This document shows positions 1,891 through 63,660 of a DNA stretch of 64,000 nt, piece after piece (the stretch's first letter is position 1; each line of letters begins with the position of its first letter). Position numbers and translations under genes: made by a program. This stretch comes from Dictyostelium discoideum. Taxonomy: Eukaryota. The stretch lies in contig CM000155.2 of assembly GCA_000004695.1 (NCBI GenBank), positions 3,488,001 through 3,552,000 of the forward strand. The letters run 5' to 3'. A model generated the notes under the pieces. That model was given only the letters and a program-made list of their open reading frames with translations, was not told where the DNA came from and searched no databases.

Positions 1891-1923
<33 letters not shown>

Positions 1924-2174: not shown

Positions 2175-2274
<100 letters not shown>

Positions 2275-3012: not shown

Positions 3013-3066
<54 letters not shown>

Positions 3067-3067
3067 A

Positions 3068-3144
<77 letters not shown>

Positions 3145-3375
3145 TAATAATAATAATAATAACAATAATAATATCATCAATAATACTCCAATTAATGGTG
3201 GAATTCACTCTTCATCTTCATCTTCAACTATTATTCAATCAACTAATAATAGTATTGCTTCAAATAACAACACATTAGCATCAGTATTATCCAATTCAAA
3301 TTCTAACCCACTACCATCATCTTCTTCACAAGCATCTTCATCATCAACACCTTTAACAATACAATCCTCAACTTC

Positions 3376-3452
<77 letters not shown>

Positions 3453-3538
3453 TTTCATCAAATGTTTTAACAAATAATGTAATAAATGGTGTTGGTAGAA
3501 TTACATCATCACCATCATTCACTAGTTCATCAAACATT

Positions 3539-3577
<39 letters not shown>

Positions 3578-3846
3578 AATAATAATAATAATAATAATGT
3601 AAATCATTCACCAGCATCATTGGGTTTGAATAATAATAATAATAACAACAATAACAATATCAATTGCAATGGTTTTTTAAATATAATGGGTACAAATAAC
3701 AATTGTAATAGTTTCGATCTAAATTTAACAAGTTTAGGAAATTCTATGGTAAATATACCATTGTCACCTTCACGATCACCCTTATGTAATTTATCAAATT
3801 CACCATCTTCAAGTTCTTCTTCCTCTTCTTCACCTCCATCACTTTC

Positions 3847-3898
<52 letters not shown>

Positions 3899-35300: not shown

Positions 35301-35398
35301 CATTTTGATCATTACTTGATTGGATATTATTAGCATCGGTAAACTTTAAAACATACAAAGTAAAGAATAAACCATTAACCTCGGATAAATCACCATTA

Positions 35399-40887: not shown

Positions 40888-43800
40888 TTATAAAGAATCT
40901 TTAATTTTTTTAATTGCGTCAGCAATTTTTTTATTTCTATCTTTAATTTCTTTTGAAGTTGTGAAACCTTTAGATTCTTCTTTATATTTATTTAAAATAT
41001 TTAATAGTTGAGGAATATTTGTAATTAGATTGTAATGTTTTGCTTTTATTTTTGGATCAACGAAATCCTCAGGATTATCAGAGAGTAAAAAGTTTGTAAG
41101 TTGACGTAATTCTACAAAGTAACCAACCATATTTCTACTGGTGGTAGTTGTTCTTTCCTTTTCATTTGCTTTCTCTTTGACGTAAGTTTCAATATATTTC
41201 AAATCAGCATCAAAAGATTTCACACCTTGAAGATTTAATTTCTTTAATTGATCATCATATATCAAAGAGAATAAAGACTCTGAAATATTTTTAAAAGCTT
41301 TGGTAATGAATTCCTCTTTTAAATTTTGAGAGAGTGGAGAAATGAAAGGAAGTGTTACCTCTAAGAAAGTACAAACATCAATTATATAATCTCTTGGACG
41401 ATCATCTATTGCATTTTGAGGGAACCATTCAATATTTGCAGCTGATGACATTAGATCTTCAATCTTTTGTTCACAAAGTTTAATAATTAATTTTTCACCA
41501 TGACTCTTTGTAGTGTAAAGTAAGTTTTGAGAATTTAAAATAACTTTATTAGTTTCATTGACAATCGATTGATTCTTTTGATAATCTTCACCTAAAATTA
41601 AACTATTTAAATAATCTTTAAAGAATGAACAACCTGATATTAAATGTTGTAAATTAATAACTAATTGAATTACTTGTGGTACAGCTTGACTTTGAGTTAA
41701 ATAACTATATAAAACTTCATTGATTTTTTTAATCAATGTATCTGTTGATCTAATTATAAAATTTTCATTCTCTGTTAATTGATCTGAAAATTCATAAAAT
41801 TCTGATATAAATTTTTTAATTAATGTATAAAATTGTGGTACCATTTTTGAAAATAAAAATGATTTTGGTAATCTTTTTAAAAAAATAAAAAAAAAAATTA
41901 ATTATTAGTATTAATATATTAAAAGTTTTTTTTTTAAATTGTTTTTTTTTTTTTTTTTTTACCTTTTTGAAATTTTATCATCTTCATTTTCATCTTCATC
42001 AAAATAATCATCATCATCATCATTATTATTATTATTATTTAAATTTTTATCACCAAATTGAAATTGATTATTATTTAAAGAATTTTGTAATTGTCTTAAT
42101 TGTTGTCTTTCTAAAATATCTAATTTATTTGCTAAAATGAGTGATTTATATTCTTCTAAAGACTCAATGATTAAAGAACAATGTGAATCACGTTCTAAAA
42201 TGATTGTAAATCTTTCAACAGCTTCTTTAATTGAGAATTGACAATATTTCTCTTTCATTGTATCCAAGAAATAATAGAGTGGTTGTACATGATAGGAATA
42301 GAATGACATTGTATTGGTAAAGATTAAAACAAACTTTTTAAATGCAATTAAAGGTTGAGTATCAACACAATGAGTGAATAATTCTTGAAGTACAGAGGTA
42401 ACCTTAACCAAAGCGGAATTCCAACTATCGTTAATGGTTGTTTTTGATAGAAAAGGCTCAGTACTATCGATAACTTTACTTTCTACCATGAAATAACCAA
42501 GAATTTGTTGAAGGAATAATTCCCAAACTTGACCACTCTCTTTTGGTTGAATTACCAATTGGAATTGTAAAAGTCTATTCAATGTATAATAAGCTTGAAA
42601 TTCCTCAAGTTGACCTATACTTGCATGAATGAAAAGACATTGATAAAGTGGATGAAATTGAATATCCGATTCATCAAATGGTGAGAATTGATTGATATCC
42701 TCCTTTAGATCCTTTTCATTGATTTGTTTATTGAAACCAAATGAAGATGGTGTTTTTCCAGAATTTGGTGAATAAATTGGTGCAGTGACAGGTGAATTTA
42801 ATGTTGGATAAAGAGCCAATGAACCAATACTACTAGAGTTTATAATTGGTGGTATATCCAATATTTTATCCCAAATTTGTTCATTCTCACCAAAGGTGGT
42901 CTTGATTTTCAATGGATTGATTTCACGTTCTTTCAAAAGTTTCTTTGAAGTTTGAATCATACCCAATTTACCAATGACAGCGGATTTCTCTTTAATTTCA
43001 ACCATCCATTGATTGAATTCATCTTTTACCAATTTTTTAATCTTTTCCTTCAATACTGGTATATTATAATCCATATTTCTTGCAAATTGAAAATCCGATA
43101 ATTTCTTTAAATAAACGTTATGTAATTGATCCATGTTTTTAATGGCTTGATAGTATTTCTTTTGTTGTACATATTCATCGACTTTCATACCTAAAAGTAT
43201 GGCATATTGACAATTGTTTAAAACTTCTTTTGTTCTCTTTATATTATCTTTGATTTGTTTATAAGCAAATAATTCCTCTGCTTTTGTAACATATTTTCTA
43301 CCAATCTCTTGAAGTTCATAATTTAAATTGATTACATCTTGTTTTAAATCTAAATTCTCACCTTTTAAACCAAGGAATGCAGTTACTGAATTAATGAAAC
43401 CTTCATGATTTTCACCACAAATCTTTTCAATATCTAAATCTTTTTGAGCGATATATGCATTCAATATCTTTATGACTTCTTTTTCTTTATTATTTTCAAA
43501 TACTGATTTAATTGCTGGTCCTAAATGATCGGTATCTGATACTGCAATTAAAAAACTCTCTGAACTAAAGATTTCACTCTCTGTTATCAATGGTTTCGCT
43601 TGATCATCTTGTGAGGAATGAGGTAATGATGATGATCTATCTTGAGAACTTAAACTATAGATACCTTGTTTTTCACCAACTTCTTTCTCCAAATGTCTAG
43701 TTTGCATTGGTTGTCCACTACTTGATAATCCATTTGAATCTATTGATGCTGATAAACCGCCACCACCACCATTACTATCATTACCATAGGAATCAAATTC

Positions 43801-44055
43801 TTGAGCACCACTATGTGTACTTGAATCACTTGTAATTGATCCTGATCTACCTGCTTTTCCAATCTTTTTCAACTCTTTTTTCTCTTTTTTTTTCTCTTTT
43901 TTAACATTTTCTGCTTCTTTTTTCTCTAATCTCTTTTTCTCTTTTTTCTCTCTCTTTTCTTCTTTTTGTTCTTTATCTTTATCTCTAACCATTGTTTTTA
44001 AAATAACACTACCACCAGCAGTGTTAATTTCTTCTTTTTGTTTTTTGTTACTCAT
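40888..44055 (-). CDS. exoc6: Exocyst complex component Sec15 (EXOC6) with a K/E-rich N-terminal extension. Two exons: 44055..41963 and 41872..40888. Phase-2 intron 41962..41873. About 1025 aa.
   Basis: Sec15 N-terminal signature TDHLGPAIKSVFENNKEKEVIKILNAYIAQKDLDIEKICGENHEGFINSVTAFLGLK, then helical bundle domains through ...VDTQPLIAFKKFVLIFTNTMSFYSYHVQPLYYFLDTMKEKYCQFSIKEAVERFTIILERDSHCSL. Exon 2 continues LPKSFLFSKMVPQFYTLIKK...LPFISPLSQNLKEEFITKAFKNISESLFSLIYDD. The donor is AG|GTAAAAA at 41962; the acceptor at 41873 keeps the codon AGA. The symbol follows the metazoan/dictyBase naming convention and is tentative. Confidence 0.78.
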
Positions 44056-48698: not shown

Positions 48699-49715
48699 AT
48701 GAATAAATTAATTTTACAAATCATAACATTTGCATTATTGATTAGTTGCTGTTTATCAATTCAACAAAACAGACAATCTTATAATAGAAATAATATTTAT
48801 AATAATATAAAAGAAATAATTGTCGATGATTATTCAGTTCCAAAATTATTAAATTCAACAATTTACTTTAATTCAACTATTCCATTTAATAGCACTTTAT
48901 CATCAGTTAATTCAACATTATCATTTATCAACAGTACACTTGGTCATTTGAATAATACAATTTCATTTAATGGAACAGTATTCTTTAATGGAAGTACACC
49001 ATTGAATGTAACTTCATTAAATTCAACTATGCTTAACATCCAAGAAACTCTCCACTCAATTCGTATTGTTTTAGAATCATTAAACACTACTCTTGTCCAT
49101 ATGAATAGAAGCTTATCTTTGTTCCAATTCAATGAAACCAGTTTAAATTCATCTATTCCTTATTATACATTCCAACCATATTATGATTCAAAATGTAAAT
49201 TCCCAGGTGGAGGTTTAGGTGTTGCCATTAGTCAAAATCAACAAAACATTACCATTTTCAACCAAACCAACATTTGTGCCAACTTTAATTTAACAAGCTC
49301 TGATAACTTTACCGTTCAATACTTTAATAATAACTGTACCTTTGCAAATGAATCAATTCATAACGAAACCTTCTCCGTTAATGATTGTAATTACAGTCCA
49401 TTCTTAAAATCATACTATAGTATTGATTTATCAACTGTTAAATTACCACAATCAACACTTGTTGTAAACTATTACAATAAAAGTTCTTGTAATGAAATTA
49501 ATCAAGAAGGTTTCAACTATATGAGTAATCACACAGTAATTGCTCATACACCAAAAAGAAATCAATCAGGTACAACTTTATTATTCTGTAATGAACAAAA
49601 TATTCCAACAAATACAACTTGTATTTCTACTCATTTTGGAAAACAAAAATGTACAACTGAAACAATTATTGAAAATTGTGATGTTACTAGAAACTTTAGA
49701 ATTACTTGTTTATAA
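48699..49715 (+). CDS. Secreted or cell-surface protein, 338 aa, with signal peptide, about 30 N-glycosylation sequons and a Cys-rich C-terminal half. Single exon.
   Basis: ATG at 48699. The signal peptide MNKLILQIITFALLISCCLS has a predicted cleavage before IQQN. Repeated NxT/S sequons appear (NSTIYFNSTIPFNSTLSSVNSTLSFINSTLGHLNNTISFNGT...). The C-terminal part has 16 Cys (CKFPGGG...CANFN...CTFANE...CNYSP...CNEINQ...CNEQNIPTNTTCISTHFGKQKCTTETIIENCDVTRNFRITCL). It ends at a TAA stop. Confidence 0.7.
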   Translation: MNKLILQIITFALLISCCLSIQQNRQSYNRNNIYNNIKEIIVDDYSVPKLLNSTIYFNSTIPFNSTLSSVNSTLSFINSTLGHLNNTISFNGTVFFNGSTPLNVTSLNSTMLNIQETLHSIRIVLESLNTTLVHMNRSLSLFQFNETSLNSSIPYYTFQPYYDSKCKFPGGGLGVAISQNQQNITIFNQTNICANFNLTSSDNFTVQYFNNNCTFANESIHNETFSVNDCNYSPFLKSYYSIDLSTVKLPQSTLVVNYYNKSSCNEINQEGFNYMSNHTVIAHTPKRNQSGTTLLFCNEQNIPTNTTCISTHFGKQKCTTETIIENCDVTRNFRITCL

Positions 49716-49922: not shown

Positions 49923-52900
49923 TTATTGGAATAAAGATTGTGAAGGTGGACCAGGATAATCAATTTTTCTAATATTAATAAAATTCTTTTGATTTAACCA
50001 AGTTATTACAGAATTTAATTTTTTAATTGTTGTATGAACACAAACTGTACCACCTAAACCTGCAGCACTAATTCTTAAGGCAGCTTTTTCTTTGAAAGTT
50101 TTAGTCATTTCATCAGCCATTTCATCAAAATCTGGTAATGATCTTTGGAAACCACCACATTTTAGAGAGAGTTCAACATGATGAGTATTTGGATTATTTA
50201 AATAGTAGAAAAGATTAAATTTATCCTTTTGAATAACAAACTCTTGACTAATTCCTAATGGTGAAGATTTTATAACATTACTACTACTATTGTTTTTGAA
50301 AGAATCAAATGAACCACTAGAATTTAAACTACCCATACAACCTGTACTTGCTAATAATGGATTTGTAATTAAGAGGATTTTATCAATTTCACCAATCCAA
50401 CTTGATATAGTATCATCATCAAAACAATTCAATGGATTTGTTGACCAAGATGTTTCTTTAAAACCATTACGATAATCTTGAATTTGTTTATCACCATCAT
50501 GAGCAGTCTTTATAATTTTCATTAAATCTTTAATTAATTGTTTTTCTTGTTTTTTATCAATACTACCATCATGATGATTATGATTATTATTTGTATTATA
50601 TTCAGCTGAATTGGAATTTGATAAAAGTGTAATAATTTGTTGATAAACTATACCTCTTTCTAATTCAGATAATGCAAATAGTACTGATTTTCTATTCCAA
50701 TATTCTATTACACCAAATCTATCAACTTTTGTTTCTGGTAATAATAATAAAAGCTTATAGATGATTTGATAACGTTTTAAACGATGATTTTTTAATTCTG
50801 GGAAATGTTTTTCAATTTCACCATCTAAAGAAAGGTCACGAAGTAAATTATTCTTTGATAATGATAGATAAAGTTTTTTCATTTCAATATCAGTGAAACC
50901 TGTAATCTTTGAGGTATTTTCAATTTCTAAAGGATTTGAAAGTTTATCTTTTAAAATGTTAACAGAATCAATTAAAACTTGAGAACCAAATGATTTCATA
51001 ATTTGATGGGCCCAATGATAGATAACATCTACGGAATTATTGTGAATTGTTTTATTAGTGCCTTCAATTTGATCAACAATCCATTCTCTACCTTGTGGAG
51101 TTGTCAAACGTGGTATATGGGATTGTGCAACTACAATAACTATTTTTTCATTTGGAAACTTTAAAGATTTTATAAATCTTTCTGGTATTGAACCAATGAT
51201 TGAAATTTTACCTTTCTTTGAGAATAGCTGAGTGGTTTTATCAGAGGCACCACCTAATTTACCCAAGAAATATTCAGCGAAATCAGTGTTTGCCATTTGT
51301 TCTTTTGTTAGATTCCAATGGAATAAACTATTTAAACAAAGTATACAAGCACCAGTTAATGCACTACTTGAACTAACACCACCAGATATTGGTAACTTTA
51401 ATAATCCATCACTTGAGAAATGAAGTAGAATTGATTGATCTTTTGATTTTAACTTTGTTAAATCATTTAAAACCGATTGTGGGTAACTTTCACATTTATG
51501 AATTAAATAAGCCAATAAACATTTGATATAACTATCCCAATGAATTTGAGACCAAAGTGGTTCTTTTGATTTTAAATCATAAGATTGTTTCAATAGTTTA
51601 ATGATATCATTATCTATTGAGATTTCAACAGTTGGGAATTGTTTACTATCTTGATTACTAATGATTACTTTTCCACCATTACCACCATTGGATTTAATTA
51701 ATTGACCAATACATAATATTTCATTCATTGAATTTGAATTTATAGTGAAACCACCTAATCCTAATAAATCACTATGTCCCATAAATACACGATCTCTACC
51801 ATTTGAACAAACTACAACAACTCTTGAGAATGGATTAAATGAATGAGATTTAATTGATACATCTAATTGATTAATTAAATTTTGTTTTCTTTCTTTTAAT
51901 AATTTAAAATTATCAAAACTATTATTATCACCACTAAAACTTTGTTGATATTGTAATTGTGGTTGTAGTGGTGGTTGTTGATTATATCTATCCTTTAATA
52001 AATCAATTGAAATTAAATTTTTAATATCATTAATTGTTAAATGAGAATTTCTTTGAACTTGATACCACCAATTAATAGAGATTGGAGTTGTTGGAGTTGA
52101 ATGATTAAATTGATTAGTTTCTTGATCAAAATGTAGTTTTTCAGCCATAATTAAACTACCTGGTCTAGCATTTGCTTCTAAGATAAAAGGTTGATATTGC
52201 TGATTAACTTGATCATATGTTAAAATCATATCAATACCAATCAATGGTAAATCAATTTCTTCAAGAATAGTTTGAGCGATTTCACACCAAAGTAACCAAT
52301 CTCTTTTTTTAATTGGTATTGGTAAATCATTTAAAATTGATTGAACCAATACCCATTTTGAATTTCTAACACCAGGGGAAATGATTAATTCATCAACAGT
52401 ACCAGCTTTTACAATTGAAAGTGTAGTTTCATTGCCAATACATGCATTCAATCTAAAGATTAATCTTTTTTGATCAGATTTTGTTCTAACAGAATCAATA
52501 ACTTGTGAAATTAAATATTCATCACCATTTAAATGATCTTGAGTATCGATTTCATCAATTAATTCTAAAACTCTTGTCACCAATTTCTTTGATGAATTTG
52601 GAGATTTAAAATATTCAACACCATTCGATTCGGTTGTATTTGATCTTGGTTGTAAAATTAAACCTCTTTCAATTTGATTTGAATTTGAATTTGTATTTAA
52701 ATCTAATAATAACAATTGTGGTGACTGTTTTTCAATTGATAATAGTATATCTCTTTCATTTAATAAATTCAAAGTTAAATTTAATATAGCAGTTGGTGGT
52801 GTTGATTTTAATTCACCATTTAAAAACCATTTTGATAATTGTGATTTTAACCAATACTTATCATCACAACGTTCTTTACTCTTTTCAAATTCATTCATAA

Positions 52901-53752
52901 CCAATACATCATGTGATTGTAATTGTTTTGATAATTGTCTATGTTGTGATAATTCTTGATCTTGATAATCACCATTTAATAATTCTAAAATAAAACAACT
53001 TGAAAGTTTTAATTTTAATCCAAATAATAATGGTAAATTAAATTCATAAATTATTTCGTTATCATTATCATTATCATTATCGTTATCGTTATCATCATCA
53101 TCATTTGGAATAATTAATAATTGACATCTTTTAATAAATGCTGATGATGATTCATTATCAAATTCAATCCAATCTTTATGACAACCAATTACATTTAATT
53201 TAAATTTCTCTTGATATTTATAAATTGTTGTTATATTTTGTTGAAAAGATTGAGTGAATGGATAATAATGATGATTCATTAATGTAGTTTTACCAACAAC
53301 CACTGAAAATGTATTATTACCACCTAATAATGAATCTGTTAATTTCTTTATAAGTTTACTTTGTTCTGAACCTGGTGGTACCATCATAACTGGTGGTGTT
53401 AATTCAACACTTATCAATGAATCATAATATCTTTCACTAATTCTTGTTAAATATTCATTCATTTCTTTTTCTTTATCAATGAATTCTCCAAATGAATATG
53501 GATTTAAAGATAAATATTCTTTACATTTTTCAATACATTTTTCAATAAATTCTTTTGGGTCATCTAAATAATAAATAATTTTTTTTTTCAATATTAATAT
53601 TTTATTATTTATTTATATTATTATTTTTTAAAAAAAATTAATTACCATTAAAAACAACTTTAAGATCTAAATTTGAATTTTTTAAATTATCTGTTAAATT
53701 CTTTGAAATATTATTATTATTATTATTTATAGATTTAAATTGTTTTAATTTA

Positions 53753-53787
<35 letters not shown>

Positions 53788-54872
53788 ATTATTATTATTA
53801 TTAAAATTATTTATATTTTTAATATAATCAAATAATTGTTGTGGTATAGTTGTTAAGAATTGTTTACCAATAGTTAAAAAGTTTGATAATACAATACGAT
53901 CATTTTGACCAATTTTAGACCAATCAATTGATTTACTACCATTAATTGGATTAATGATTGTATGTAATTCGATTTCTCTCTTCCAAGAGTTTGTCCATAA
54001 ACCGACGCCAACATTAGGTTCAAGATGCCAAAATTTAATTGATTTAACTTCACCTTGAAATTCTTTACCTGTCTTTAAATCTTTTAAAAGATAAATTGAA
54101 CCACCATTATTATTATCAATTGATTTTTCATTTTCATCATTAATATCTAAAGTTGTTGGAGGTATAGTTATATCAATTAATCTACAAGATTCAACAATTT
54201 CACCAGTTTCTTTATTTTTCCAAACTGGTTCAGGTATGAAATCTAACATTAAATAACGTGGCCACCAAATTGGAGTACCTAAAGCATCAAATTCTTTAAT
54301 GGAAGGGAATCTTTCATGATAAGATTTGAATGAATGTTTATAGAGTTCAATTTGTTGATTCCAATAGATAGGACCAAATTTAGAGATATCAGACATAACA
54401 TTTCTACCAGCTTCTTCTAAACCATTTAAAAATTGTTGTCTTAATGATGATTTAATTAATTGAGGATTTAAAATTTCTAATGAACCCTGTCTACCAACAT
54501 TTGTTGCAATTTGTAAACTATTTAATGAAATTGGATGTGAAGTTTGCCAATTTAATGGATCATCTAAACAAAGTTGTTGATTATCATTATCACTATCCTT
54601 GTTGTTTTGATGATTTGGTTTTGCACATTTTGAACTTGAAAGAATTAAACGAACTGAACCATAAATTGAATCCTTTGGGAATCTATTCAATTCAACTGCT
54701 ATACCATAATCATTAATTTGTCTTTCAATCATTCTTTTAATTGATCTATGTGACATCCAAAATAATGGTGATGCAATGATTGCACGTTGAATTACAACAT
54801 TTTGAGATTTTGAAATATGTAATATAAATTCACATGCATTATTAATTGATTTACTACATAATTTTATACCAA

Positions 54873-54911
<39 letters not shown>

Positions 54912-57900
54912 CACTATTAATATTATTATAATCATCTTGATCGTCATTATCTTGTTGTAATAAACAATCAAATCTTGATAAATTTCTAGCACCAGATTCT
55001 GCAGCACCTTTAACTATTATAATTGGATATTGTTTAATGAATGGTAATAATCTTGTTTCAATCTTTTTCATTAATTCTTGGTGAGTACCTTGATTTTGAG
55101 TAGTTTCAATTTGTAACCAATCAATTTCTTGTGGTAAATTAACTTTATGTGGATTTGAATTTGAATTAAATATTAATGGATATAATGATTTATTATAGGT
55201 CATTTCATAAAGAAAAGGTGATTTATCAGTGGTTGGATAACCAGCATTTGAAATTTGTGATTCTAATCTATGATGATGTAATGTTACAATACTACCAATT
55301 ACAATTGGATGAATGAATCTTGATGCTACCAATACACCTTTACCAACAATGATAACCTTTTCATTAATTTCTTTTTCAATTCTTTCATTAATTTGTTGAG
55401 TTGATAATTTTGAATAATTTGATAGATAATATTTATATTGATTTAAATTAATCCAATAAAATGCATCATTAATTGTTAAAACTGATTTATCTGTATCACC
55501 ACCACCATTTCCACCACCACCATCAGGTAATGAAATAAAATTACCATCTCTTGTAATAAACAAATTATCAGATAAAGTTGGACCTTCAGTCATTGAACTT
55601 GCATAATGTGTCCTTCCAATTGGTGATAAGAAACAATGATTAACTTTTTTTGAACAATTTAAAGTTTCCTCTAAATATGGATCGATGAAATCTTTGAATA
55701 CTCTTGGTAATTGGAAACCATCATTCTTTATGAAAACAATCTCTCTAAGTTGATTATAAGATCTCCAAAGTAATTCATATTTTGGTGGATTATTTTCATA
55801 ATCATCTTTACCAACTGATGAACCAATTGCTTGAGTAATAATTGTATCTGATTCAATATTTGTATCACCTAATAATAAATCAATTACTTTTTGATCATCA
55901 TTACCCCCACTACCACCACCACCACCACCACCACCACCACTAGTATTATTTTCACCAACAACAATATCATTATATTTTAAAGAATTAATAATTGATGATT
56001 TATTAATTATTAAAGATCTAATGAATGGATAAAGATATTTATGTGATTTCCAATAGAGTTGATATTGTTGTTCACGATGTGATGATAACATAATACCGAC
56101 TTGATCGAAATGACGATTGAATAATGGATAACGTTTGGGATCCATACTCCATGGAGTGAATTCTGAATAATGATCATCTATTGTTTTTGCAAAGAATTCA
56201 GCCAATGATCTAATTAATGGTTGATCAGATTCTAGATCACCACTTTCTAATGATAAATAAATTGAACATTTCTCTAATAATAATAAAGTACTAATCAATT
56301 CTGTAATGATTGAAACTATTATTTGATGATCATTTTGATTCATTGATTTATTTGAAATTTCATATAATGGTGTAATTAAACCAAATGTTTCATAAGTACC
56401 AATTAATTGATCCCAAATCTTTAAATCAATTTCATTACCATTAATACATAATCTATCAAATAATGATAATAAATTCTCTTTTTCTTTTTTATCAATTTCT
56501 TGTTGATTTATATCTTGACTCTTTGAATTTGAATAAATTATATTTACAATTGATTCTAATGATAAAATTGATAATTTAAATATTTTACCAATAATAATAT
56601 TAATATCTTGAATACTTATTGTTGTTGTTGTTGTAGTGGTGGTTGTTGTTGTTGAAATATTACTTAATTTTAAAATATTTTGATGAATTTCATTTAAATG
56701 AATTTTCTTTACATTATCAATAGTTAAATCAATTGATGATTTTAAAGGTGAAATGATTGAATTGAAACCAATTGATCTTGATTTCATAATTTGATTTTTC
56801 TTTGATTGAATTAAAAGTTCTTTTCTTCTAGTTACACCAGATTCAACATGATCTTCACTTGCTTTAACACTAAACATTTTACCCTTTCTATCTTTAAATT
56901 GAGCTTTACTTGGTGCTAATTGTTGTGATAAATCTTTAAATATTAAATCATTCAATTGTTGATCACCAATGAAATTGGTTGTTTTCATTTCATTTTGATT
57001 TTCATTTTCATTTGTTGATAAAAGATTATTAATTTTCTCATAAGATGATTGAATTAATTTTAATATTCTATTTTGATATTGAATGGTTGTACCATTTAAT
57101 AATAAATAACCACCAATTGATAACCAATGTAATGGTGATAACATTTCAATTGAAGGATTATCTAATAACTCTTGTAAATGTTCTCTAATTATAAAATCTC
57201 TTTTCTTTGATCTATTTGCTAATAATACACGTTGTTCATATTGAATTAATAAATCAATTTCAGTTTCTAAACTTGATATAATTAAACCTTCATTTGAATA
57301 TTGTAGTTGTTGTTGTTGTTTTTGAGTATGATCATTATTAAATTGATTTAATTTTTTACATTGTTTACCAAATAATTTAAAATTAAAATCATTAAGTAAT
57401 GATAATAATTTTTGATTATCATTTTCATTATAAATTGATTGGAAATAATTGAAAGCTATTATTGAACGATTTTCTAATCTTAAAACTTCTTGACGTAAAT
57501 CTGTACCTAGAATTGGTTGATATTGATCTTTACCAAAACCAAATGCTTTATAGATTGATCTTCTACCATTGGTATGACGTTGTTCCCAATCGGTAATTCT
57601 ATTACCATTTTGATCTATTGCTAAACAAGCAGCATACCAAAGCATGATATCACGTTCAAACCAACATCTATGACGACCTTGACTAACTTGATCATGAATT
57701 GCCAATGAACTATTAGGTCTACCAATCAACATTAGATCACGAATTGTTGAAGGATTTAAAGAAAGTAATTGTGGATGAGTGATAGAGAATACAACTATAT
57801 CTTGACCTTGTAAATCCTTTAAGAATTGATTACCTGGACCTCTTAATTTTAACATTAATGGATGAATTTTACCACCAATTTCTTTCTTTATCGCATTACA

Positions 57901-60900
57901 TTTCTCTTTTGAATAGGTTGTTGATAATGGTACCCATTCATCAATGAATTGACGATGTAGTTGTGCATTGGCTCTCATTTGATCCATTGAAATTCCATAA
58001 CGTTTTAAGATTTCAGCAGCTTCATTTGCATCATCCTCTAATAGGGATAAACTTTCAGATGAGAAATTTAAAAGATCTGAACTATCGACACCTGGTACAC
58101 TTGTGATAGTAATATCACCAACGGTTGAATGTGGAGGAAATCTTTCAATTAATTTATTTACAATCTCTTGATGTTCACGATTATTAGTTTCATCAAAATC
58201 CAATACACCATTACCAATGAATTGTTGTGCTAAATATTTTCTAATTGCTATATCTTGATGATGTTTTGAATTTGGTTTGAAACCATTCCATGTTAATCTT
58301 GCAACCAATTGACCCTCTTCATCCAATGACATTGAAACCTCCTCCATATGACCTGATAAAATTAAGAAAGCTCTCATTACCCAAGCAAAACGTACATCTG
58401 GTGGTGGTTTTTCATTATCATCACCTTTATAAACTCCAAACATATGTATACGTAATTCAGTTTCTTTTGGTAAATTCTTTACTAATGGATTTAATTTAAT
58501 TGCTTCTTTTGCACTCTCTGGTATTTCAATTGTCATTGGAAAAACTACTGATCTATTAACTTGTTCACCACCTAATGTTACTTTTTTCTCTGCCCAATTA
58601 CTCCAAACTGTACTATGACATGATGAAGTTAATGTTGATAAATTTGATGACGATGATAATGATGATGGAATATTATTAATATTAATACCACTACTACCAC
58701 CACCACCTCTTCTCCAACCATTAATTAATGGTGAAGGTATACCAATTGTACCAAGAATTTGACACATTTTTGAAACATGTAAACAAACAATACCACCAGT
58801 AACTTGAATATATTGTTTCATATATTTTGAAAAATTATTTGAATGAGTTGAACCACAAAATTTATTTAATAAACTATTTGAATCATTTGGATCAGGATTT
58901 GTAAATTGATTTGCAGCCCAATTTTCCCATTCACCAATTGAAGGGAATTGCCATTGTTTATTTGAGATTTCAATCATCATTTGAATGATTTGTTGATGAA
59001 GATGTGATGGTATACCAATCATTGAAAGTTTTCTTGAATCTTGATGAGTTACAACAAACAATTTGAATAACAAATCTTTTGGAATACAATAGCCAGCTGT
59101 TGGTCCAGCGGAAAAGGATTCGTTTTCTTTACCCAATGCAATTGAAAGACCACCACGTTGATTGAATTGATATGATAAATCTTCTATATCCCCAACTGAT
59201 AAACGTTCGACAAACAATGCTTGTACATTTCTAACTGATCTAATCAATGCAGTATTTTGATTTTCACTAACTTTTAAATTCTCTGCAGTAGTGATAGTAC
59301 GAATTATTGGATTATAATTAATTAAAGAATAGAAACGATAAGCATGTTTTGCACAAAGTGGATCAGTTACACCAAGAAATTGAGGCCAAGTTTCAACTGA
59401 TTTTCTTTCATCTTTACCAAGGTTAACTCTTGATGGACCATAAATGAAATGATAACGTTTTCTCATACCAGTTGGTCTAATTTCACCACCATTTTCACCG
59501 TCACTACCTCCACCACCACCACCACCAATTACAGCACCACAACTAAAGGCAAACAATGGATTATTCAATTGATTTAATAAACCATTCTCAGATATTACTG
59601 ATCTTCTTGCTGTTGTTAATGATAATACTGAATGATTTCTATAATATTTCTCTAAACGTTTTAATATAAATAACTCTGGTTTCTTTTTATCAATAATCTC
59701 TAATGCTCTATATCTTGCTTCCCATTGAATAAAATATTTTAATTCATTCCTATATGGTTGTTTTGATTTAATAATAATTGAAATTTCTTCTTTTGATAAA
59801 TTTATAATATTACCACTACTACCACTACTACCACTACCAACACCATTTGGTGATAGAAAATCTTTTTCATTTTTATTTTGTTGATAAATTGTTTCAATAC
59901 CTAAATCTTGAAATTCTTTATAATATTTTGAATTATTTAAAATTTCTAAAACAGTTTTTGGTTCAGATTTAAGTCTTTCTTCTAAATTAAAGTTTATAGA
60001 ATTTTCAGATGATGATGATAATGAATCATCAATTTTTTCTAATTCAAATAAAATTAATAATAATGAAACTTGTTTTTGAATTATTAAATGATCAGAAACA
60101 ATTGAAGAGATTGCACGTTGATGAGATATTTTCAAATGATTTTGACGTTGTTCAACTATTGGTTGATAATTAAATTCATTGATAACTTTACAACCAACTA
60201 AATAGAGATCATTTTGATATTGATTTAATTTCTTTTCAACCAATTGTGGTAGACCATTATAATGTTCAATGATATTATTTAAACACATTTCTTCCTCTAG
60301 TACAGCTTGAATAAAACTTTCAACCAAACCTGGTGCCTCGGTAGTTAATAAATGAAAACCTGGTAAATTTCTTTGCTTCTTTAATGAATAATATTGCAAT
60401 TGTGATAATTTGATTGGATTGTTATCTTTTAATGATGATAAATTGAATTTCTTTGATTTTTCAATTATTTCCAATTCTTTTGATTGAATTAATTGTTTTA
60501 ATGATTCAATACGTGTTATGAATTTAGATTGTTTCCAATTTTCAAAGATGTTTGATTCAACTTGTTCATAAAGATTGTTCTCTTGATATTCTTGTTCTAA
60601 TTGGCATGCCAATTTAATGATATCATCTTTTTGATTGATTAATAGCTTTCTGTAGATTTGTTCAAATTCAAAGATTCCCAAATTGTCTTGATAGAGTTTA
60701 AATGATTGTTCCAATAGAGTTGTTGAATGTTTAACTAATAACTCCCTTGCCAATGATAAATGTTCAGTTAACATTGTGATTTTAATATTCTTTGACCAAG
60801 GATCAGCCAAAGATCTTATAGTTTGTTCAAGACCTTCTTGATCGACTTCAAAAACCGTTTCACTTTTACCATCGTCAGTGATATGAGTTCTTTCATAGAT

Positions 60901-62274
60901 GAATAAAGGTACTGCTTCAATTAGGTCTGTAGAATGTTCAACCCAACAATTTGAAGGAGACATATGAATATTTTCACCACCAATTCTAATTAACTTTTGA
61001 AGTGATTCCTCTTGTTCTGGTTTTGGTTCAAGATCATTTGTTCTAAATCTTTCAGAACCTGATAAACTTGGACGTTGTAATAGTACTGAATAACCAGTTG
61101 ATTCCTTTCTAGCAGATAGTATCTCTTGTTCCAATAATTGAACATCTTTCCAAACTTTACCATAACCTCTAGCGAATAAATCATCAACAATTCTATAAAC
61201 CATTTGGTAATAGTAATAATAATGTTGTTGTTGTTGATTTGATTGTTGATTACTATGTGATGAAATTAATAATGATCTAGTTGAACCTTCACCATGAAAA
61301 TTTATAAATTTTGAATAATGATCATCAATAATTTGATAACATTTACCATAAACAATAGTAATTGTTTCTTTTAATTGAATGATTGCACCTTGAATTTGTG
61401 TGATTGAAATTACTTTTTTTGAAGAAATACTTTGAAATCTACCACTTGTTGCTAATAAATGTTTTAATGTTTCTGATAATTTTAATTTTAATTCATTCAT
61501 ACTACTATTATTACTATTATTATTATTATTAATTTGTTGTTGTTGATCAAATTGTTTTAAAAAGTAATTTAAAGATATTAAATTTTTAATTTGAAAAATT
61601 AAAGTTTTAATTGATTGAGAAACTTTTATCATTGAAGAAGCCGCGAATAGAGTAGCTTGATTCGAGAATGCTCTTGATTCTCTACCACAAACTATTATCT
61701 TATCCCAATTATTTGGAAAACCTGGTGAATTTATTGAATCACGAATTTCATTTGCTAATTGAATTGAATTCCTTTCTTCAACTGATGAATTAAATCTTTT
61801 AATAACTTGATAAGTTGATTCTCTTCTTTCTGCAATATCTTCAATTAATAATGATCTCTTTAATGATTGTCTATCATAACAATAATCAATCTTTAATGAT
61901 TTTAAATACCAAGATACTCTTGAATCACGTTTATTTATAACATTTTCAATTAATTGATTAATTAATTTTTCATTATCATCATTATTATTATTATCACTGT
62001 TATTATTATTTAAAAGTAACCATTCTTCTAATTCAATTGTATTTAATGTTTGAGAAATTTTTAATTTTTCAAATAATTCAATTGATTCTTGATTAATTGT
62101 TTTAATTGATTCAATATAATCGATGAATAAATTATTTGAATCTAATAATCCATTTGAAATTTGTAATGCTTTTATTAAACAAAGGTAATCTTGTTGAGTC
62201 ATTGATAAAACATAACTTGTTAATTTATGTAAAACAATTCTATGAATTATATTCTTTGGTTTAATTTCAACATC

Positions 62275-62349
<75 letters not shown>

Positions 62350-62826
62350 TGAAATTTCATTTGTAATTATTAACCAATATAAAATTGAAACACTAAATAA
62401 TATTGAAATTTGATATTCAATCACTTGTGAACTACTACCATCTTCTTTACATTTATTTATAAATAATTTTAATAAATCATAATTTGTTATTAAATTATTT
62501 TCATTATTAATTTCATCAAAACTATTATTATTATTATTATTGGTAAAAGTAAATGATGATAAATAACCATGATTTTCATTAAAATTAATTGTTAAATTAT
62601 TTAAATGATTATATTTATTAAAAATTGTTGGATAATTATAATTTAAAAAGTTTATTGATTTTAATAATGCTTTGGTTAATTGATGATTTTTATTTGATTC
62701 TTCCAAGATGTAATCAAAACTATTACTATTATGAATTGAATTAAAATCAATATCAGTTAAACATGTTGAATCTGATGATTTTGTTAATTTAAATGGCGTT
62801 GAATTGGTATCAATGCTTAATTTCAA
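49923..62826 (-). CDS. Giant multidomain protein of at least 4,270 codons in this window, with the 5' end unresolved. At least two exons: ...62826..53646 and 53563..49923, joined across an 82-nt phase-1 intron 53645..53564. It contains two ATP-grasp-like modules and a C-terminal GHMP-kinase domain.
   Basis: The track shows two ORFs 45 bp apart on the same strand: 53638..62826 ending ...VVFNGN* and 49923..53591 starting at a TTG. The first ORF's stop lies inside a GTAATT donor (AAT G|GTAATT at 53645). The second ORF is preceded by TATTATTTAG| (acceptor at 53564), which restores the frame as ...VVFNG-D-DPKEFIEKCIEKC.... ATP-grasp motifs in the upstream part: PIIIVKGAAESGARNL (Lys loop), NVVIQRAIIASP, YGSVRLIL. 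In the downstream part: SIVKAGTVDE and PFILEANARPGSL (E-x-N motif). GHMP motif II is LPISGGVSSSSALTGACILCLN and motif III is LRISAAGLGGTVCVHT near the C-terminus. There is no in-frame ATG near 62826, so the first exon probably lies upstream, somewhere in 62900..63400. Confidence 0.68.
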
Positions 62827-63660
62827 TTTAGTTTCACCATACGTTCTTTTGGTTATCTCAATACAATTTGATTTTTTATTATCTTCATTTTGAACTATTA
62901 AATTATTTGAATAATCAACTATTCCAATAATACCAATTGATTGATTATAATAATATAAATCTTTTTCCTTATTATTTTATTTTATTATATTAGTAAATAA
63001 TTTTAAAAATGAATAATAATAAATTTTTACATATAAAAAACATTAAAGCTGACACCAGTGGTGTGACTGTGTCAGAAAAAAAAAAAATTTTAAAAAGTTC
63101 GCAACTCGCACAAAAAAAAAATAAAAAGAAATAACATTCACACACAAAAAAAAAGATCGGAGGAAACCATCTGCGAAACTGTTTTTTATATGTACTTCTT
63201 TTTTAAGTAATCCTTGAAAAAATAGTAAAAAAAAAAATTTAAAAATGAAATAACACCTGTTTTTGAAATTTAAAAAAAAAAAACAAAAAACCATATAAAA
63301 ACAGACCCAATTACTGCATTTTTCGAACAAATTTTTTTTTTGGTGAATTATAATTAAATCAACTATTCACAGAAAGGTCCAATAATAATAACTATTATTT
63401 AGTGAATCTTACATTCAAATCTAGGGATTTATAAATATTATTTGAATTTTCATTCTTGATCATCTTGGTTATTTATTTTTGTTTTTTTTAATTTTTTTTT
63501 ATTTTTTTTTTTTATTTTTATTTTTTTTTTTATTTATTTTTTTTTTATTATCTAGAAGATAAAAAATTTAATATAATTAATTTTATTTTTTTTAAAAATT
63601 TTATTTTTTTTTTTTAAATAAGATAGATAGAGAGAGAGAAAAAAAAAATATTTGTGAGAA

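What the first reader, a model, noticed from the sequence alone, without database searches (positions are those of the whole stretch)
49923..62826. Two track ORFs are one giant gene: tandem ATP-grasp modules fused to a GHMP kinase
The 3062-aa and 1222-aa minus-strand ORFs are separated by only 45 bp. The upstream ORF's stop codon sits 5 nt into a textbook Dictyostelium donor (G|GTAATT). The downstream ORF has no ATG (the track start is a TTG) but is preceded by a poly-pyrimidine TTTAG acceptor in the right phase. Spliced, they give a continuous reading frame of at least 4,270 codons. The product contains two separate sets of ATP-grasp motifs. One has Lys loop PIIIVKGAAESGARNL, a QEY-like NVVIQRAII and an Arg motif SVRLIL. 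The other has SIVKAGTVDE and E-x-N PFILEANARPGSL. These are followed by GHMP-kinase motifs II (PISGGVSSSSALTGA) and III (ISAAGLGGTVCV). Peptide ligase (ATP-grasp) and small-molecule kinase (GHMP) modules combined in one polypeptide of this size is not an architecture I recognise. It suggests a single-protein assembly line that ligates and then phosphorylates a metabolite or peptide.
Basis: partly seen in the sequence, partly recalled or inferred. Interest (0 to 1): 0.85.

Follow-up and report, generated by a model that had tools for sequence, protein, structure and literature searches.

The report
Giant spliced four-enzyme gene in Dictyostelium
The two long minus-strand reading frames are almost certainly one intron-split gene for a roughly 4,300-residue enzyme that joins a sugar-dehydrogenase-like core, two ATP-dependent ligase domains and a sugar-kinase-like domain; the same unstudied protein occurs in other social amoebae and in many uncultured bacteria.

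Summary
The ORFs, the G|GTAATT donor, the TTTAG acceptor and the phase are as described, and the spliced frame has 4,273 open codons. There is no transcript evidence. Homology bridges the junction instead: uninterrupted ORFs of 3,900 to over 6,000 aa in Planctomycetia and Omnitrophota MAGs, one ORF in another eukaryotic contig, and a 3,985-aa Polysphondylium violaceum protein are all colinear with both ORFs.

One cited motif, SIVKAGTVDE, is not conserved.

Many bacteria encode module 2 as a separate gene next to the ORF1-like gene, which supports a functional link. Bacterial relatives carry or neighbour sugar kinases and nucleotidyltransferases.

My best guess, an inference only, is a sugar activation, oxidation and amide-ligation pathway. 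Every homologue with a source-given name is called hypothetical or uncharacterised.

The parts
63413..63463 (-). Candidate first exon (tentative): ATG...AAT encoding MIKNENSNNIYKSLDLN, followed by a GTAAGA donor.
   Evidence: Sequence reading. It joins exon 2 in phase 0. There is no homology or transcript support. Residues just downstream (LYYYNQSIGIIGIVD) appear by eye to resemble the P. violaceum N-terminus LYPIYYGLFNIVD (sequence); the local alignment did not cover these residues.
62968..63412 (-). Candidate first intron (tentative), 445 nt, ending ...AATAATAAG.
   Evidence: At 78.7% A+T it is unusually G+C-rich for a Dictyostelium intron. No Rfam, tRNA or stable-fold signal was found.
53646..62967 (-). 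Large exon. It covers the track ORF 53638..62826 plus 141 nt of open frame upstream of its TTG. It encodes residues 18-3124 and the first base of codon 3125.
60379..62001 (-). Conserved N-terminal block of unknown fold (residues about 340-880). Invariant motifs include GRxSRAFxNQ, EAxPLFIxER and EVDQE.
   Evidence: Alignment A7 with 14 bacterial loci, 45% mean column identity. No PDB sequence-profile hit and no Pfam hit.
57529..60405 (-). NDP-sugar 6-dehydrogenase-like region (residues about 872-1830), very divergent and carrying large insertions.
   Evidence: Profiles A5 and A10 against the PDB hit only UDP-glucose/NDP-sugar 6-dehydrogenases: 22 of 22 and 25 of 25 hits, best 3g79 at E=6.3e-8. 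The bacterial homologue P0012 passes Pfam UDPG_MGDP_dh at 31.8 bits against a cut-off of 25.4.
59065..59463 (-). Core matched to solved UGDH structures (residues 1186-1318). It contains RKRYHFIYGPSRVNLG, the Lys/Asn motif LKVSEN and the catalytic-Cys motif AGYCIPKDLLF.
   Evidence: Residue-level alignments. Y, C, P, K and D of the motif are invariant in 21 sequences.
55819..57531 (-). Conserved middle block of unknown fold (residues about 1830-2400). Motifs include RKGxMFSVKASE and the consensus FFAETIDDHFYEYNPWAFDPKR (FFAKTIDDHYSEFTPWSMDPKR in the Dictyostelium protein).
   Evidence: Alignment A8. No PDB hit.
53839..55881 (-). ATP-grasp module 1 with its N-terminal pre-domain (residues 2380-3060). 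Motifs: PIIIVKGAAESGARNL (54979-55026), NVVIQRAII (54775-54801), SVRLIL (54640-54657), SLQIATNVGRQGSLE, YLMLD and HLEPN (53995-54033).
53564..53645 (-). Intron, 82 nt, GTAATT...TTTAG, phase 1, 96% A+T. It contains the ORF1 stop codon and lies in the low-complexity linker just after the point where the shorter bacterial homologues end.
   Evidence: Group-B bacterial proteins end at residues about 3055-3060.
49923..53563 (-). Last exon. It encodes the last two bases of codon 3125 and residues 3126-4337, plus the stop codon.
52056..53462 (-). ATP-grasp module 2 (residues 3159-3627). Motifs: RCDDKYWL, LILQPRSNTTESNGVEYF (Gln where ATP-grasp enzymes usually have Lys), LIFRLNA, LIGIDMIL and PFILEANARPGSL (52152-52190).
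   Evidence: Profile A6 against the PDB: cyanophycin synthase ATP-grasp at E=1.9e-4, and 11 of 14 hits are ATP-grasp enzymes. Nine of 11 family members hit Pfam ATPgrasp_ST and 6 of 11 hit ATPgrasp_YheCD, all below threshold. The stand-alone homologue P0076 passes Pfam ATP-grasp_3 at 39.1 bits against a cut-off of 23.2. The AF2 model failed with pLDDT 39.
49926..51869 (-). GHMP-kinase module of the galactokinase-like branch (residues 3690-4337). Motif I is SNGRDRVFMGHSDLLGLGG (51750-51806), motif II is PISGGVSSSSALTGA (51348-51392) and motif III is ISAAGLGGTVCV (50037-50072). A long insertion separates motifs II and III.
   Evidence: Pfam GHMP_kinases_N at 25.9 bits against a cut-off of 22.3. 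NCBIfam galactokinase at E=6e-7. Profile A9 against the PDB: AbGHMP 9ulx at 1.8e-12, GalNAc kinase at 8.8e-8, yeast galactokinase at 9.9e-8, with the mevalonate-branch enzymes weaker.

Best explanation
Shown or strongly supported: the two track ORFs are exons of one Dictyostelium-type gene. Its model has about 4,337 codons if the tentative 5' exon is right, and the ORFs are joined by an 82-nt phase-1 intron.

The product belongs to a conserved, unnamed family of giant multi-domain proteins. In order, the domains are:
1. a conserved block of unknown fold;
2. a very divergent NDP-sugar 6-dehydrogenase-like core that keeps the catalytic Cys and the Lys/Asn motif;
3. a second block of unknown fold;
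4. an ATP-grasp ligase domain of the RimK/LysX/Ddl structural type;
5. a low-complexity linker that holds the intron;
6. a second, unrelated ATP-grasp domain;
7. a galactokinase-like GHMP kinase.

The same colinear architecture is found in single uninterrupted ORFs in Planctomycetia and Omnitrophota MAGs. A shorter form ends just before the linker in many other bacteria. There, module 2 is often a separate gene next to or near the ORF1-like gene.

Inferred mechanism, about 30% likely in its specifics: the protein is a one-polypeptide pathway acting on a sugar.
- The GHMP domain phosphorylates a sugar hydroxyl, as galactokinase-type kinases do at C1.
- The activated (nucleotide-)sugar is oxidised to a uronic acid on the Cys of the dehydrogenase-like core.
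- The two ATP-grasp domains activate carboxylates as acyl-phosphates and ligate amine partners, which could be amino acids or an amino sugar. The product would be an amide-decorated sugar acid or a small glycopeptide-like compound.

The 36-41% identity to bacterial proteins over about 3,900 residues suggests gene transfer between bacteria and amoebae.
For: One gene:
- The prokaryote-type contig L002 has one ORF (P0002, 1,575 aa) matching residues 2299-3055 and 3142-4012 in one frame.
- In eight bacterial loci the match runs colinearly to about residue 3900 or beyond, and to about 4333 in two of them. Seven carry it in a single ORF of 3,917 to over 6,093 aa.
- Eukaryotic contig L003 has one ORF covering residues 1526-3727, with an intron at a different position.
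- P. violaceum KAF2076817.1 (3,985 aa) and a Synstelium protein (3,864 aa) are colinear with both ORFs.
- Only one in-frame donor exists, and the sequence after the acceptor has coding-like composition.

Domains.

Functional coupling: at least 12 group-B loci encode a separate 510-550-aa homologue of module 2 (hmmsearch E 1e-27 to 1e-40), in most cases directly downstream of the ORF1-like gene. This was the only widely conserved neighbour.

Sugar context in bacterial relatives:
- NTP_transferase plus an APH kinase upstream in L011.
- NTP_transf_3 (at threshold) and PIG-L (below threshold) inside the L038 ORF.
- Inositol_P in the L007 ORF, which also has a sub-threshold Hexapep match.
- A ROK-family domain upstream in L045.
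- A second GHMP kinase downstream in L006.

The GHMP profile is closest to galactokinase and GalNAc kinase.
Against: - There is no transcript evidence for the splice. The Logan contigs that match are genomic and contain the intron.
- ORF2's first in-frame ATG (53465-53463) sits exactly at the start of the conserved part of module 2. Stand-alone proteins with module 2 plus GHMP exist elsewhere: L010, P0021 and P0025. An independent downstream gene is therefore not formally excluded.
- No NAD-binding GxGxxG motif and no C-terminal UDP-binding domain of the dehydrogenase family was detected. The core may not be a working dehydrogenase.
- Module 2 has Gln where ATP-grasp enzymes normally have an ATP-binding Lys.
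- Two blocks totalling about 1,100 residues have no assignable fold.
- The sugar-pathway idea rests on domain types and on the context of distant bacterial relatives, partly from sub-threshold Pfam hits. No substrate is known.
- The Dictyostelium protein itself carries no nucleotidyltransferase.
Confidence: 0.8

Rival explanations
1. The ORFs are two separate adjacent genes. ORF1 ends at the TAA at 53638. ORF2 is transcribed from its own promoter and starts at the ATG at 53465 (MNEYLTRISE...).
For: That ATG coincides with the start of the conserved module-2 block. In L010 the two parts are separate ORFs. Proteins with only module 2 plus GHMP exist, such as P0021 and P0025. No transcript data were available.
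Against: The ORF2 frame stays open for 33 codons between the AG acceptor and that ATG, with coding-like composition and codon periodicity. The 82 nt in between look like an intron. Only 172 nt would be left for a terminator, a promoter and a 5' UTR. DPKEFIEKC..KEY aligns with the continuous P. violaceum protein. Both dictyostelid orthologues and another eukaryote encode the parts as one protein.
Confidence: 0.07
2. It is one gene, but the ligase modules modify a protein or build a peptide or poly-amino-acid, as RimK, tubulin ligases and cyanophycin synthetase do, rather than a sugar acid. The kinase would phosphorylate that product or a co-substrate.
For: The top structural neighbours of module 1 include LysX/ArgX, RimK and the tubulin polyglutamylases, all of which act on protein C-termini or side chains. 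Module 2's best solved relative is cyanophycin synthetase.
Against: Fold similarity within the ATP-grasp superfamily does not predict the substrate. Ddl, glutathione synthetase and DcsG score almost as high. Module 2's nearest Pfam family is the sugar-transfer-associated ATP-grasp. The fused dehydrogenase-like core, the galactokinase-like kinase and the bacterial context all point to carbohydrate chemistry.
Confidence: 0.2
3. It is one gene, but some modules are catalytically dead and the protein works mainly as a scaffold or regulator built from former enzyme domains.
For: No NAD-binding motif was detectable in the dehydrogenase-like part. Module 2 has Gln in place of the usual Lys in most members. 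The Dictyostelium ATP-grasp modules are too divergent for Pfam.
Against: Residues at the expected catalytic positions are invariant across eukaryotes and distant bacterial phyla. These are GYCxPKD and K..EN in the dehydrogenase-like core, KGAAESGARN, LD and LEPN in module 1, GID and EANARPG in module 2, and GHMP motifs I-III. That pattern suggests selection on chemistry.
Confidence: 0.12
4. The region is bacterial contamination or a mis-assembly in a eukaryotic window.
For: The closest full-length relatives outside dictyostelids are bacterial, at 36-41% identity.
Against: The gene is 70-75% A+T and contains poly-Asn, poly-Gln and poly-Thr tracts and a canonical A+T-rich intron. It sits among typical Dictyostelium genes: CfaA/B/C, FNIP repeats, Sec15 and a RhoGEF with a villin headpiece. 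Independent sequencing runs give contigs that are identical over the 209 aligned bases around the intron and encode a product 99% identical to ORF2.
Confidence: 0.01

Closest known systems
Unannotated orthologues: Polysphondylium violaceum KAF2076817.1 (hypothetical protein CYY_001894, 3,985 aa), the Synstelium polycarpum EukProt protein (3,864 aa), and Candidatus Omnitrophica MBI3615282.1 (5,597 aa) with other MAG proteins
   Same: They are colinear over nearly the whole length: 44-50% identity for the dictyostelids and 36-41% for group-A bacteria. The order of the dehydrogenase-like core, ATP-grasp 1, ATP-grasp 2 and GHMP kinase is the same.
   Different: All are called hypothetical or uncharacterised, so they explain nothing about function. 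Bacterial members lack the first 350 or so residues and the low-complexity tracts. Some add WD40, nucleotidyltransferase, PIG-L or inositol-phosphatase-like domains.
UDP-glucose/NDP-sugar 6-dehydrogenases (Pfam UDPG_MGDP_dh; e.g. PDB 3g79, 4a7p)
   Same: The segment from the end of the N-domain through the central domain aligns, including the catalytic Cys in GG(Y/S)C(I/F)PKD and the upstream Lys/Asn motif.
   Different: No recognisable GxGxxG NAD-binding start and no C-terminal UDP-binding domain was detected. About 230 residues are inserted after the TTEAPG motif. The region is embedded in a protein roughly ten times larger.
RimK / LysX-ArgX / D-Ala-D-Ala ligase type ATP-grasp carboxylate-amine ligases
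   Different: Sequence identity is 8-13%. No Pfam or PDB sequence-profile hit was found. The hinge residue is Gln (NVVIQ) and there is a low-complexity insertion. The substrate is unknown.
Cyanophycin synthetase and the Pfam families ATPgrasp_ST (sugar-transfer associated), ATPgrasp_YheCD and ATP-grasp_3
   Same: Module 2 shares the C-terminal GID...E-x-N-x-x-P-G Mg/ATP-binding region.
   Different: All matches by family members are below the curated thresholds. Only a stand-alone relative passes one. The usual Lys is Gln. The fold was not confirmed because the AF2 model failed.
Galactokinase-type GHMP sugar-1-kinases, including fused kinase/pyrophosphorylase salvage enzymes such as the zebrafish glucuronokinase/pyrophosphorylase (PMC3938481, title and abstract only) and L-fucokinase/GDP-fucose pyrophosphorylase (from my own knowledge)
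   Same: GHMP motifs I and II align with galactokinase, GalNAc kinase and Gal3 structures. Some bacterial family members fuse or neighbour a nucleotidyltransferase, as those salvage enzymes do.
   Different: The Dictyostelium protein has no nucleotidyltransferase domain. There is a large insertion between the N and C lobes. Pfam GHMP_kinases_C was not detected.
Campylobacter jejuni capsule pathway, in which a UDP-glucose dehydrogenase supplies glucuronate and an ATP-grasp amidoligase domain (Cj1438) amidates it (recalled from my own knowledge, not checked here)
   Same: The chemical logic is the same as I propose: oxidise C6 to a carboxylate, then use an ATP-grasp enzyme to form an amide.
   Different: Those are separate, normal-sized enzymes. 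No sequence relationship was tested. This is an analogy for the mechanism, not a membership claim.

Membership tests
ATP-grasp superfamily (module 1, residues 2380-3060) | Three-subdomain ATP-grasp fold | tested here: met
ATP-grasp superfamily (module 1, residues 2380-3060) | Conserved Lys at the end of a strand, followed by a flexible Gly-rich loop, plus an Asp and an E-x-N metal-binding motif | tested here: inconclusive
   IIIVKGAAESGARN, YLMLD and HLEPN are in the right order on predicted strands. Those covered by all sequences are invariant in the 12 homologues. No residue-level superposition on a solved enzyme was available.
ATP-grasp superfamily (module 1, residues 2380-3060) | Match to a curated ATP-grasp sequence model | tested here: not met
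   No Pfam or NCBIfam hit at E<=1. The family profile finds no ATP-grasp chain in the PDB by sequence.
ATP-grasp superfamily (module 2, residues 3159-3627) | Sequence-profile similarity to ATP-grasp families | tested here: met
   Profile against the PDB: cyanophycin synthase at E=1.9e-4, and 11 of 14 hits are ATP-grasp. Nine of 11 members hit ATPgrasp_ST (best 5e-5), 6 of 11 hit YheCD (best 5e-6) and 2 of 11 hit RimK. Homologue P0076 passes ATP-grasp_3. The Dictyostelium sequence alone gives only a rimK-related hit at E=0.049.
ATP-grasp superfamily (module 2, residues 3159-3627) | ATP-grasp fold | tested here: inconclusive
   The AF2 model, built from a 4-sequence alignment, had pLDDT 39 and was unusable.
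ATP-grasp superfamily (module 2, residues 3159-3627) | ATP-binding Lys in the strand before the Gly-rich loop | tested here: not met
This position is assigned from motif order, not by alignment to a solved enzyme. The Dictyostelium protein has LILQPRSNTTES. Of the 11 aligned sequences, nine have Gln here and only L006 and L009 have Lys.
ATP-grasp superfamily (module 2, residues 3159-3627) | Asp and E-x-N metal-binding motif | tested here: met
   GID and E-x-N-x-R-P-G are invariant in 11 sequences. They align with the cyanophycin synthase motif GIDVV...EVNAAPG.
GHMP kinase superfamily | Motif II (P-x-x-x-G-L-x-S-S-A) and a match to the N-terminal domain model | tested here: met
   Pfam GHMP_kinases_N at 25.9 bits against a cut-off of 22.3 on ORF2. 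Bacterial homologues score 29.6-31.3 bits.
GHMP kinase superfamily | Motif I (G-R-x-x-x-x-G-E/x-H-x-D) as in galactokinases | tested here: met
   SNGRDRVFMGHSDLLGLGG. The G, R, G, H, D and GLG positions are invariant in 15 sequences. The motif aligns with PGRLDVMGGIADYSG of PDB 9ulx.
GHMP kinase superfamily | Motif III and the C-terminal domain | tested here: inconclusive
   AALRISAAGLGGTVCV is conserved in the eukaryotic and bacterial homologues. Pfam GHMP_kinases_C was not detected. The PDB alignment of this part is not significant.
UDP-glucose/GDP-mannose dehydrogenase family | Central domain with the catalytic Cys and the Lys/Asn motif | tested here: met
   P0012 scores 31.8 bits against a cut-off of 25.4. 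The family profile against the PDB gives 25 of 25 hits to NDP-sugar 6-dehydrogenases, best E=6.3e-8. The Tyr, Cys, Pro, Lys and Asp of GYCIPKD are invariant. The Dictyostelium sequence alone has no Pfam hit.
UDP-glucose/GDP-mannose dehydrogenase family | N-terminal Rossmann NAD-binding domain with GxGxxG | tested here: not met
   Alignments to solved enzymes start at chain residue about 174. Upstream there is only a non-significant match of TTEAPG..EEE to STITPGTTEG. No GxGxxG motif was seen in the conserved upstream blocks.
UDP-glucose/GDP-mannose dehydrogenase family | C-terminal UDP-sugar-binding domain | tested here: inconclusive
   HMMER found no match. By eye, YK..PPPDVRF resembles the FK..tdD.ReS start of that domain. 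This was not tested.

The most novel reading that the evidence does not exclude
This gene encodes an undescribed single-polypeptide pathway, shared by social amoebae and several candidate bacterial phyla. It takes a sugar through phosphorylation or activation, Cys-dependent oxidation to a uronic acid, and two successive ATP-grasp amide ligations. The product would be a new amide-linked sugar-acid or amino-acid compound or polymer. The gene would have moved between bacteria and amoebae by horizontal transfer. The two large conserved blocks with no detectable relatives may be new catalytic or carrier domains.
Probability: 0.3. Interest if true: 0.7.

Novelty: new variant of a known kind. Interest (0 to 1): 0.55.

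Why it matters
If the model is right, a genetically tractable organism carries a conserved megaenzyme of about 4,300 residues whose product is unknown. Its only close relatives outside the dictyostelids are in uncultured Omnitrophota, Planctomycetia, Latescibacterota and similar lineages that cannot be studied directly. A knockout with metabolite or cell-wall analysis in Dictyostelium could therefore assign a function to a whole family of giant hypothetical proteins in MAGs.

The family also offers a clean natural case of gene fusion. Module 2 is a separate neighbouring gene in many bacteria and is fused in others and in amoebae, which is strong evidence that the parts work together. About 1,100 conserved residues have no recognisable fold and may be new domains.

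For annotation, the case shows that ORF tracks made with the bacterial code split Dictyostelium genes at short A+T-rich introns.

Tried and rejected
Searches that failed or found little:
- A homologue search with the full 4,273-aa product timed out.
- Two word-indexed homologue searches with the C-terminal part were swamped by low-complexity words and returned only the gene itself.
- A megablast search against phages was pointless and found nothing.
- An exact look-up of my 4,337-aa model did not find it in the collection, so I could not recover the public Dictyostelium annotation or confirm the 5' exon.
- The AlphaFold database fold library was unavailable.

Structure and profile attempts:
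- AF2 of the C-terminal 1,200 residues with a 4-sequence alignment failed at pLDDT 39. Module 2's fold and the GHMP C-lobe therefore remain unmodelled.
- PDB profile searches of the N-terminal and middle conserved blocks found nothing. The module-1 profile search also found nothing relevant.
- A profile-profile comparison of the two ATP-grasp modules found no relationship, so the idea of a tandem duplication is rejected.

Transcript and RNA checks:
- The Logan contigs were checked for a spliced transcript, but they are genomic.
- The G+C-richer candidate first intron gave no Rfam hit, no tRNA and no stable fold.

Context and literature:
- Clustering of neighbour genes across 48 bacterial loci found no widely conserved partner other than the stand-alone module 2.
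- Literature searches found no description of this architecture. The Aravind-lab lipocone paper mentions the same words in unrelated contexts. The 2009 amidoligase survey could not be read.

The contamination hypothesis was rejected on composition, the intron and the neighbouring genes.

Full report
**1. What is in the sequence**

The window is about 22% G+C. It carries typical Dictyostelium genes: CfaA/B/C, FNIP repeats, Sec15, and a RhoGEF with a villin headpiece.

The gap between them is 46 bp. The minus strand reads ...GTT TTT AAT G|GTAATTAATTTTTTTT...TTATTATTTAG|AT GAC CCA AAA. This gives a GT donor at 53645, the ORF1 stop 5 nt into the intron, an AG acceptor at 53565-53564 behind a T-rich tract, and a phase-1 junction. 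Joining 53646 to 53563 yields 4,273 open codons.

I enumerated every GT...AG pair that keeps both frames open. Only one donor works. Of the four compatible acceptors, the first gives an 82-nt intron of 96% A+T. The 98 nt between that acceptor and ORF2's first in-frame ATG are 80% A+T, with 66/78/94% A+T at codon positions 1, 2 and 3. That is coding-like. The intron resembles the 97% A+T spacer 3' of the gene.

**2. Is it one gene?**

No transcript data could be reached. The only near-identical public contigs, from Logan, are genomic and contain the intron. Homology settles the question to a high standard instead.

A search with a query spanning the junction found proteins covering both sides.
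- P0002 is a single 1,575-aa ORF on a prokaryote-type contig, next to a HEPN/nucleotidyltransferase toxin-antitoxin pair. It matches residues 2299-3055 and 3142-4012 of my model in one frame.
- A scan of one genome per bacterial species found 47 loci.
- In eight of them (Planctomycetia and Omnitrophota MAGs, 36-41% identity) the match runs colinearly from about residue 357 to about 3900 or beyond, reaching about 4333 in two. In seven it lies inside one uninterrupted ORF of 3,917 to over 6,093 aa.
- A eukaryotic metagenome contig (L003) is colinear from residue 394 to 4330. One exon covers 1526-3727, and an intron sits elsewhere.
- The exhaustive library search returned Polysphondylium violaceum KAF2076817.1 (hypothetical protein, 3,985 aa) and a Synstelium polycarpum protein (3,864 aa). 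Both are colinear with both ORFs at 38-50% identity.
- The residues just after the acceptor, DPKEFIEKCIEKCKEY, align with NPAQFIERGKLFVKEY of the P. violaceum protein.

A residual doubt remains. ORF2's first ATG coincides with the start of the conserved module. Proteins with only module 2 plus GHMP exist in some organisms, for example L010. I put the two-gene alternative at about 7%.

**3. The 5' end**

ORF1's frame is open up to 62976 without an ATG, so an upstream exon is needed. A candidate is ATG 63463...AAT|GTAAGA, joined to AG|GAA at 62967 in phase 0. This gives a 4,337-residue model.

The model is tentative. The implied 445-nt intron is only 78.7% A+T. The exact protein is not in the public collection.

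**4. Domains, in the numbering of the 4,337-residue model**

(a) Residues about 340-880 form a block conserved with 14 bacterial loci. It has no Pfam or PDB relative.

(b) Residues about 872-1830 form an NDP-sugar 6-dehydrogenase-like region.
- The bacterial homologue P0012 passes Pfam UDPG_MGDP_dh.
- Family profiles hit only UDP-glucose/NDP-sugar 6-dehydrogenases in the PDB: 22 of 22 and 25 of 25 hits, best E=6.3e-8.
- The match is limited to the end of the N-domain plus the central domain.
- The catalytic-Cys motif AGYCIPKD and the Lys/Asn motif LKVSEN are invariant across 21 sequences.
- No GxGxxG NAD-binding start and no C-terminal UDP-binding domain was detected.
- I therefore call this region dehydrogenase-like, not a family member.

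(c) Residues about 1830-2400 form a second conserved block with no relatives.

(d) Residues 2380-3060 are ATP-grasp module 1.
- Sequence methods fail here.
- I add YLMLD and HLEPN as the likely metal-binding Asp and E-x-N.

(e) Residues 3060-3158 are a low-complexity linker that contains the intron.

(f) Residues 3159-3627 are ATP-grasp module 2.
- The profile against the PDB gives cyanophycin synthase at E=1.9e-4, and 11 of 14 hits are ATP-grasp.
- Nine of 11 members hit Pfam ATPgrasp_ST, 6 of 11 hit YheCD and 2 of 11 hit RimK, all below threshold.
- Stand-alone homologues reach ATP-grasp_3 above threshold.
- PFILEANARPGSL is the true E-x-N motif.
From motif order, the equivalent Lys position is LILQPRSNTTES, where Gln replaces Lys in nine of 11 aligned sequences.
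- The AF2 model of this half failed with pLDDT 39.
- Modules 1 and 2 are unrelated by profile-profile comparison.

(g) Residues 3690-4337 are a GHMP kinase.
- It passes Pfam GHMP_kinases_N.
- All three motifs are present.
- The family profile is closest to a GHMP structure named AbGHMP (1.8e-12), GalNAc kinase (8.8e-8) and galactokinases. The mevalonate-branch enzymes score weaker.

**5. Family and context**

Two forms exist in bacteria.

Group A has the full architecture.

Group B contains proteins of about 2,620-2,690 aa from Omnitrophota, Latescibacterota, Gemmatimonadota, Myxococcales, Desulfovibrionaceae, Acidobacteria and others. These end at residues about 3055-3060, just before the Dictyostelium linker and intron. 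In at least 12 group-B loci a separate 510-550-aa gene is a homologue of module 2, with hmmsearch E values of 1e-27 to 1e-40. In most of them it lies directly downstream. It is the only widely conserved neighbour. This fused-versus-adjacent pattern is good evidence that the ORF1-like part and module 2 act together. The GHMP part occurs only in group A and the eukaryotes.

Group-A relatives add, or sit beside, sugar-activation functions:
- a nucleotidyltransferase plus an APH-type kinase upstream in L011;
- NTP_transf_3 (at threshold) and PIG-L (below threshold) inside the L038 ORF;
- an inositol-monophosphatase-family segment in the L007 ORF, which also has a sub-threshold hexapeptide-repeat match;
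- a ROK-family domain upstream in L045;
- a second GHMP kinase downstream in L006.

Some of these hits are at or just below Pfam thresholds.

**6. Mechanism**

The following rests on established enzyme-family chemistry.
- ATP-grasp enzymes form an acyl-phosphate from a carboxylate and pass it to a nucleophile, usually an amine.
- Galactokinase-type GHMP kinases phosphorylate a sugar hydroxyl.
- UDP-sugar 6-dehydrogenases oxidise C6 to a carboxylate through a Cys-bound intermediate.

Putting these together with the bacterial context gives my best guess: a one-polypeptide route of sugar activation, oxidation to a uronic acid, and one or two amide ligations. The chemical logic resembles the Campylobacter capsule glucuronamide pathway, which I recall from my own knowledge and did not test here.

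This is inference, and I give its specifics about 30%. There are two rivals: a protein- or peptide-directed ligase of the RimK, tubulin-ligase or cyanophycin type (about 20%), and partial pseudo-enzyme status (about 12%).

**7. Novelty and verdict**

The splice and the fused architecture are real. The architecture is not unique to this locus: it is conserved in dictyostelids and several bacterial phyla. Every homologue with a source-given name is called hypothetical or uncharacterised, apart from one 198-aa fragment that JGI labels galactokinase. Full-text searches found no description of the architecture.

The protein is built from known enzyme superfamilies plus about 1,100 residues of unknown fold. 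I therefore rate it a new variant of a known kind, with interest 0.55. It is worth a knockout and metabolite study in Dictyostelium, but it is not a new principle.

Noticed in passing
window 40888-41844 (-) and 41959-44055 (-): Two adjacent track ORFs carry Sec15_C and EXOC6/Sec15_N respectively. This is one exocyst Sec15 gene, presumably split by a short intron or a few short introns in the 114-nt gap, the same artefact as in the finding.
   Followed up: no
window 32311-35358 (-): An ORF of 1,015 aa combines an NDT80/PhoG DNA-binding domain with a Peptidase_S74 intramolecular-chaperone domain. This is the architecture of myelin-regulatory-factor-type membrane-tethered transcription factors.
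   Followed up: no
window 48699-49715 (+): A CfaA/B/C (counting-factor-associated) protein gene converges on the 3' end of the giant gene. The spacer between them is 207 bp and 97% A+T.
   Followed up: partly
window 62968-63412 (-): The candidate first intron is only 78.7% A+T. It has G+C-rich patches (e.g. GGTTTCCTCCGATC, GTGCGAGTTGCGAAC) and a hairpin, CTGACACAGTCACACCACTGGTGTCAG, at about 63047-63075. It gave no Rfam hit, no tRNA and no significant fold (z = -0.8). It may hide another exon, a promoter element or a small RNA.
   Followed up: partly
L012, L014, L020, L021, L024, L031, L035, L037, L040, L042, L044, L051 (bacterial MAG loci): A stand-alone 510-550-aa homologue of ATP-grasp module 2 is encoded next to, or within a few kb of, the roughly 2,650-aa ORF1-like gene. 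This is a fused-versus-separate pair.
   Followed up: yes
L010:3350-11800 and L010:12027-16058: In one Omnitrophica MAG the ORF1-like part (2,817 aa) and the part with module 2 plus GHMP (1,344 aa) are separate adjacent ORFs in different frames. This is either a genuine split or an assembly frameshift.
   Followed up: partly
L011:1-3597, L038:13097-21775, L007:12510-15629, L045:3-3647, L009:1-3423, L008:2-4396: Group-A bacterial relatives carry or neighbour extra domains: NTP_transferase plus an APH kinase; NTP_transf_3 with a sub-threshold PIG-L match; the inositol monophosphatase family with a sub-threshold hexapeptide-repeat match; ROK; DUF4954; and an N-terminal WD40 propeller.
   Followed up: partly
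window 52608-52661 (-), residues 3426-3443: In module 2 the strand that normally carries the ATP-binding Lys of ATP-grasp enzymes reads LILQPRSNTTES. Gln is the rule in this family, and only two bacterial members have Lys. This may mean altered nucleotide handling.
   Followed up: partly
L003 (JGI metagenome contig, 330 kb): An unidentified A+T-rich eukaryote carries a multi-exon orthologue at 39% identity, with introns up to about 2 kb. It is about as distant from Dictyostelium as the bacterial group-A proteins are, which bears on the question of horizontal transfer.
   Followed up: partly
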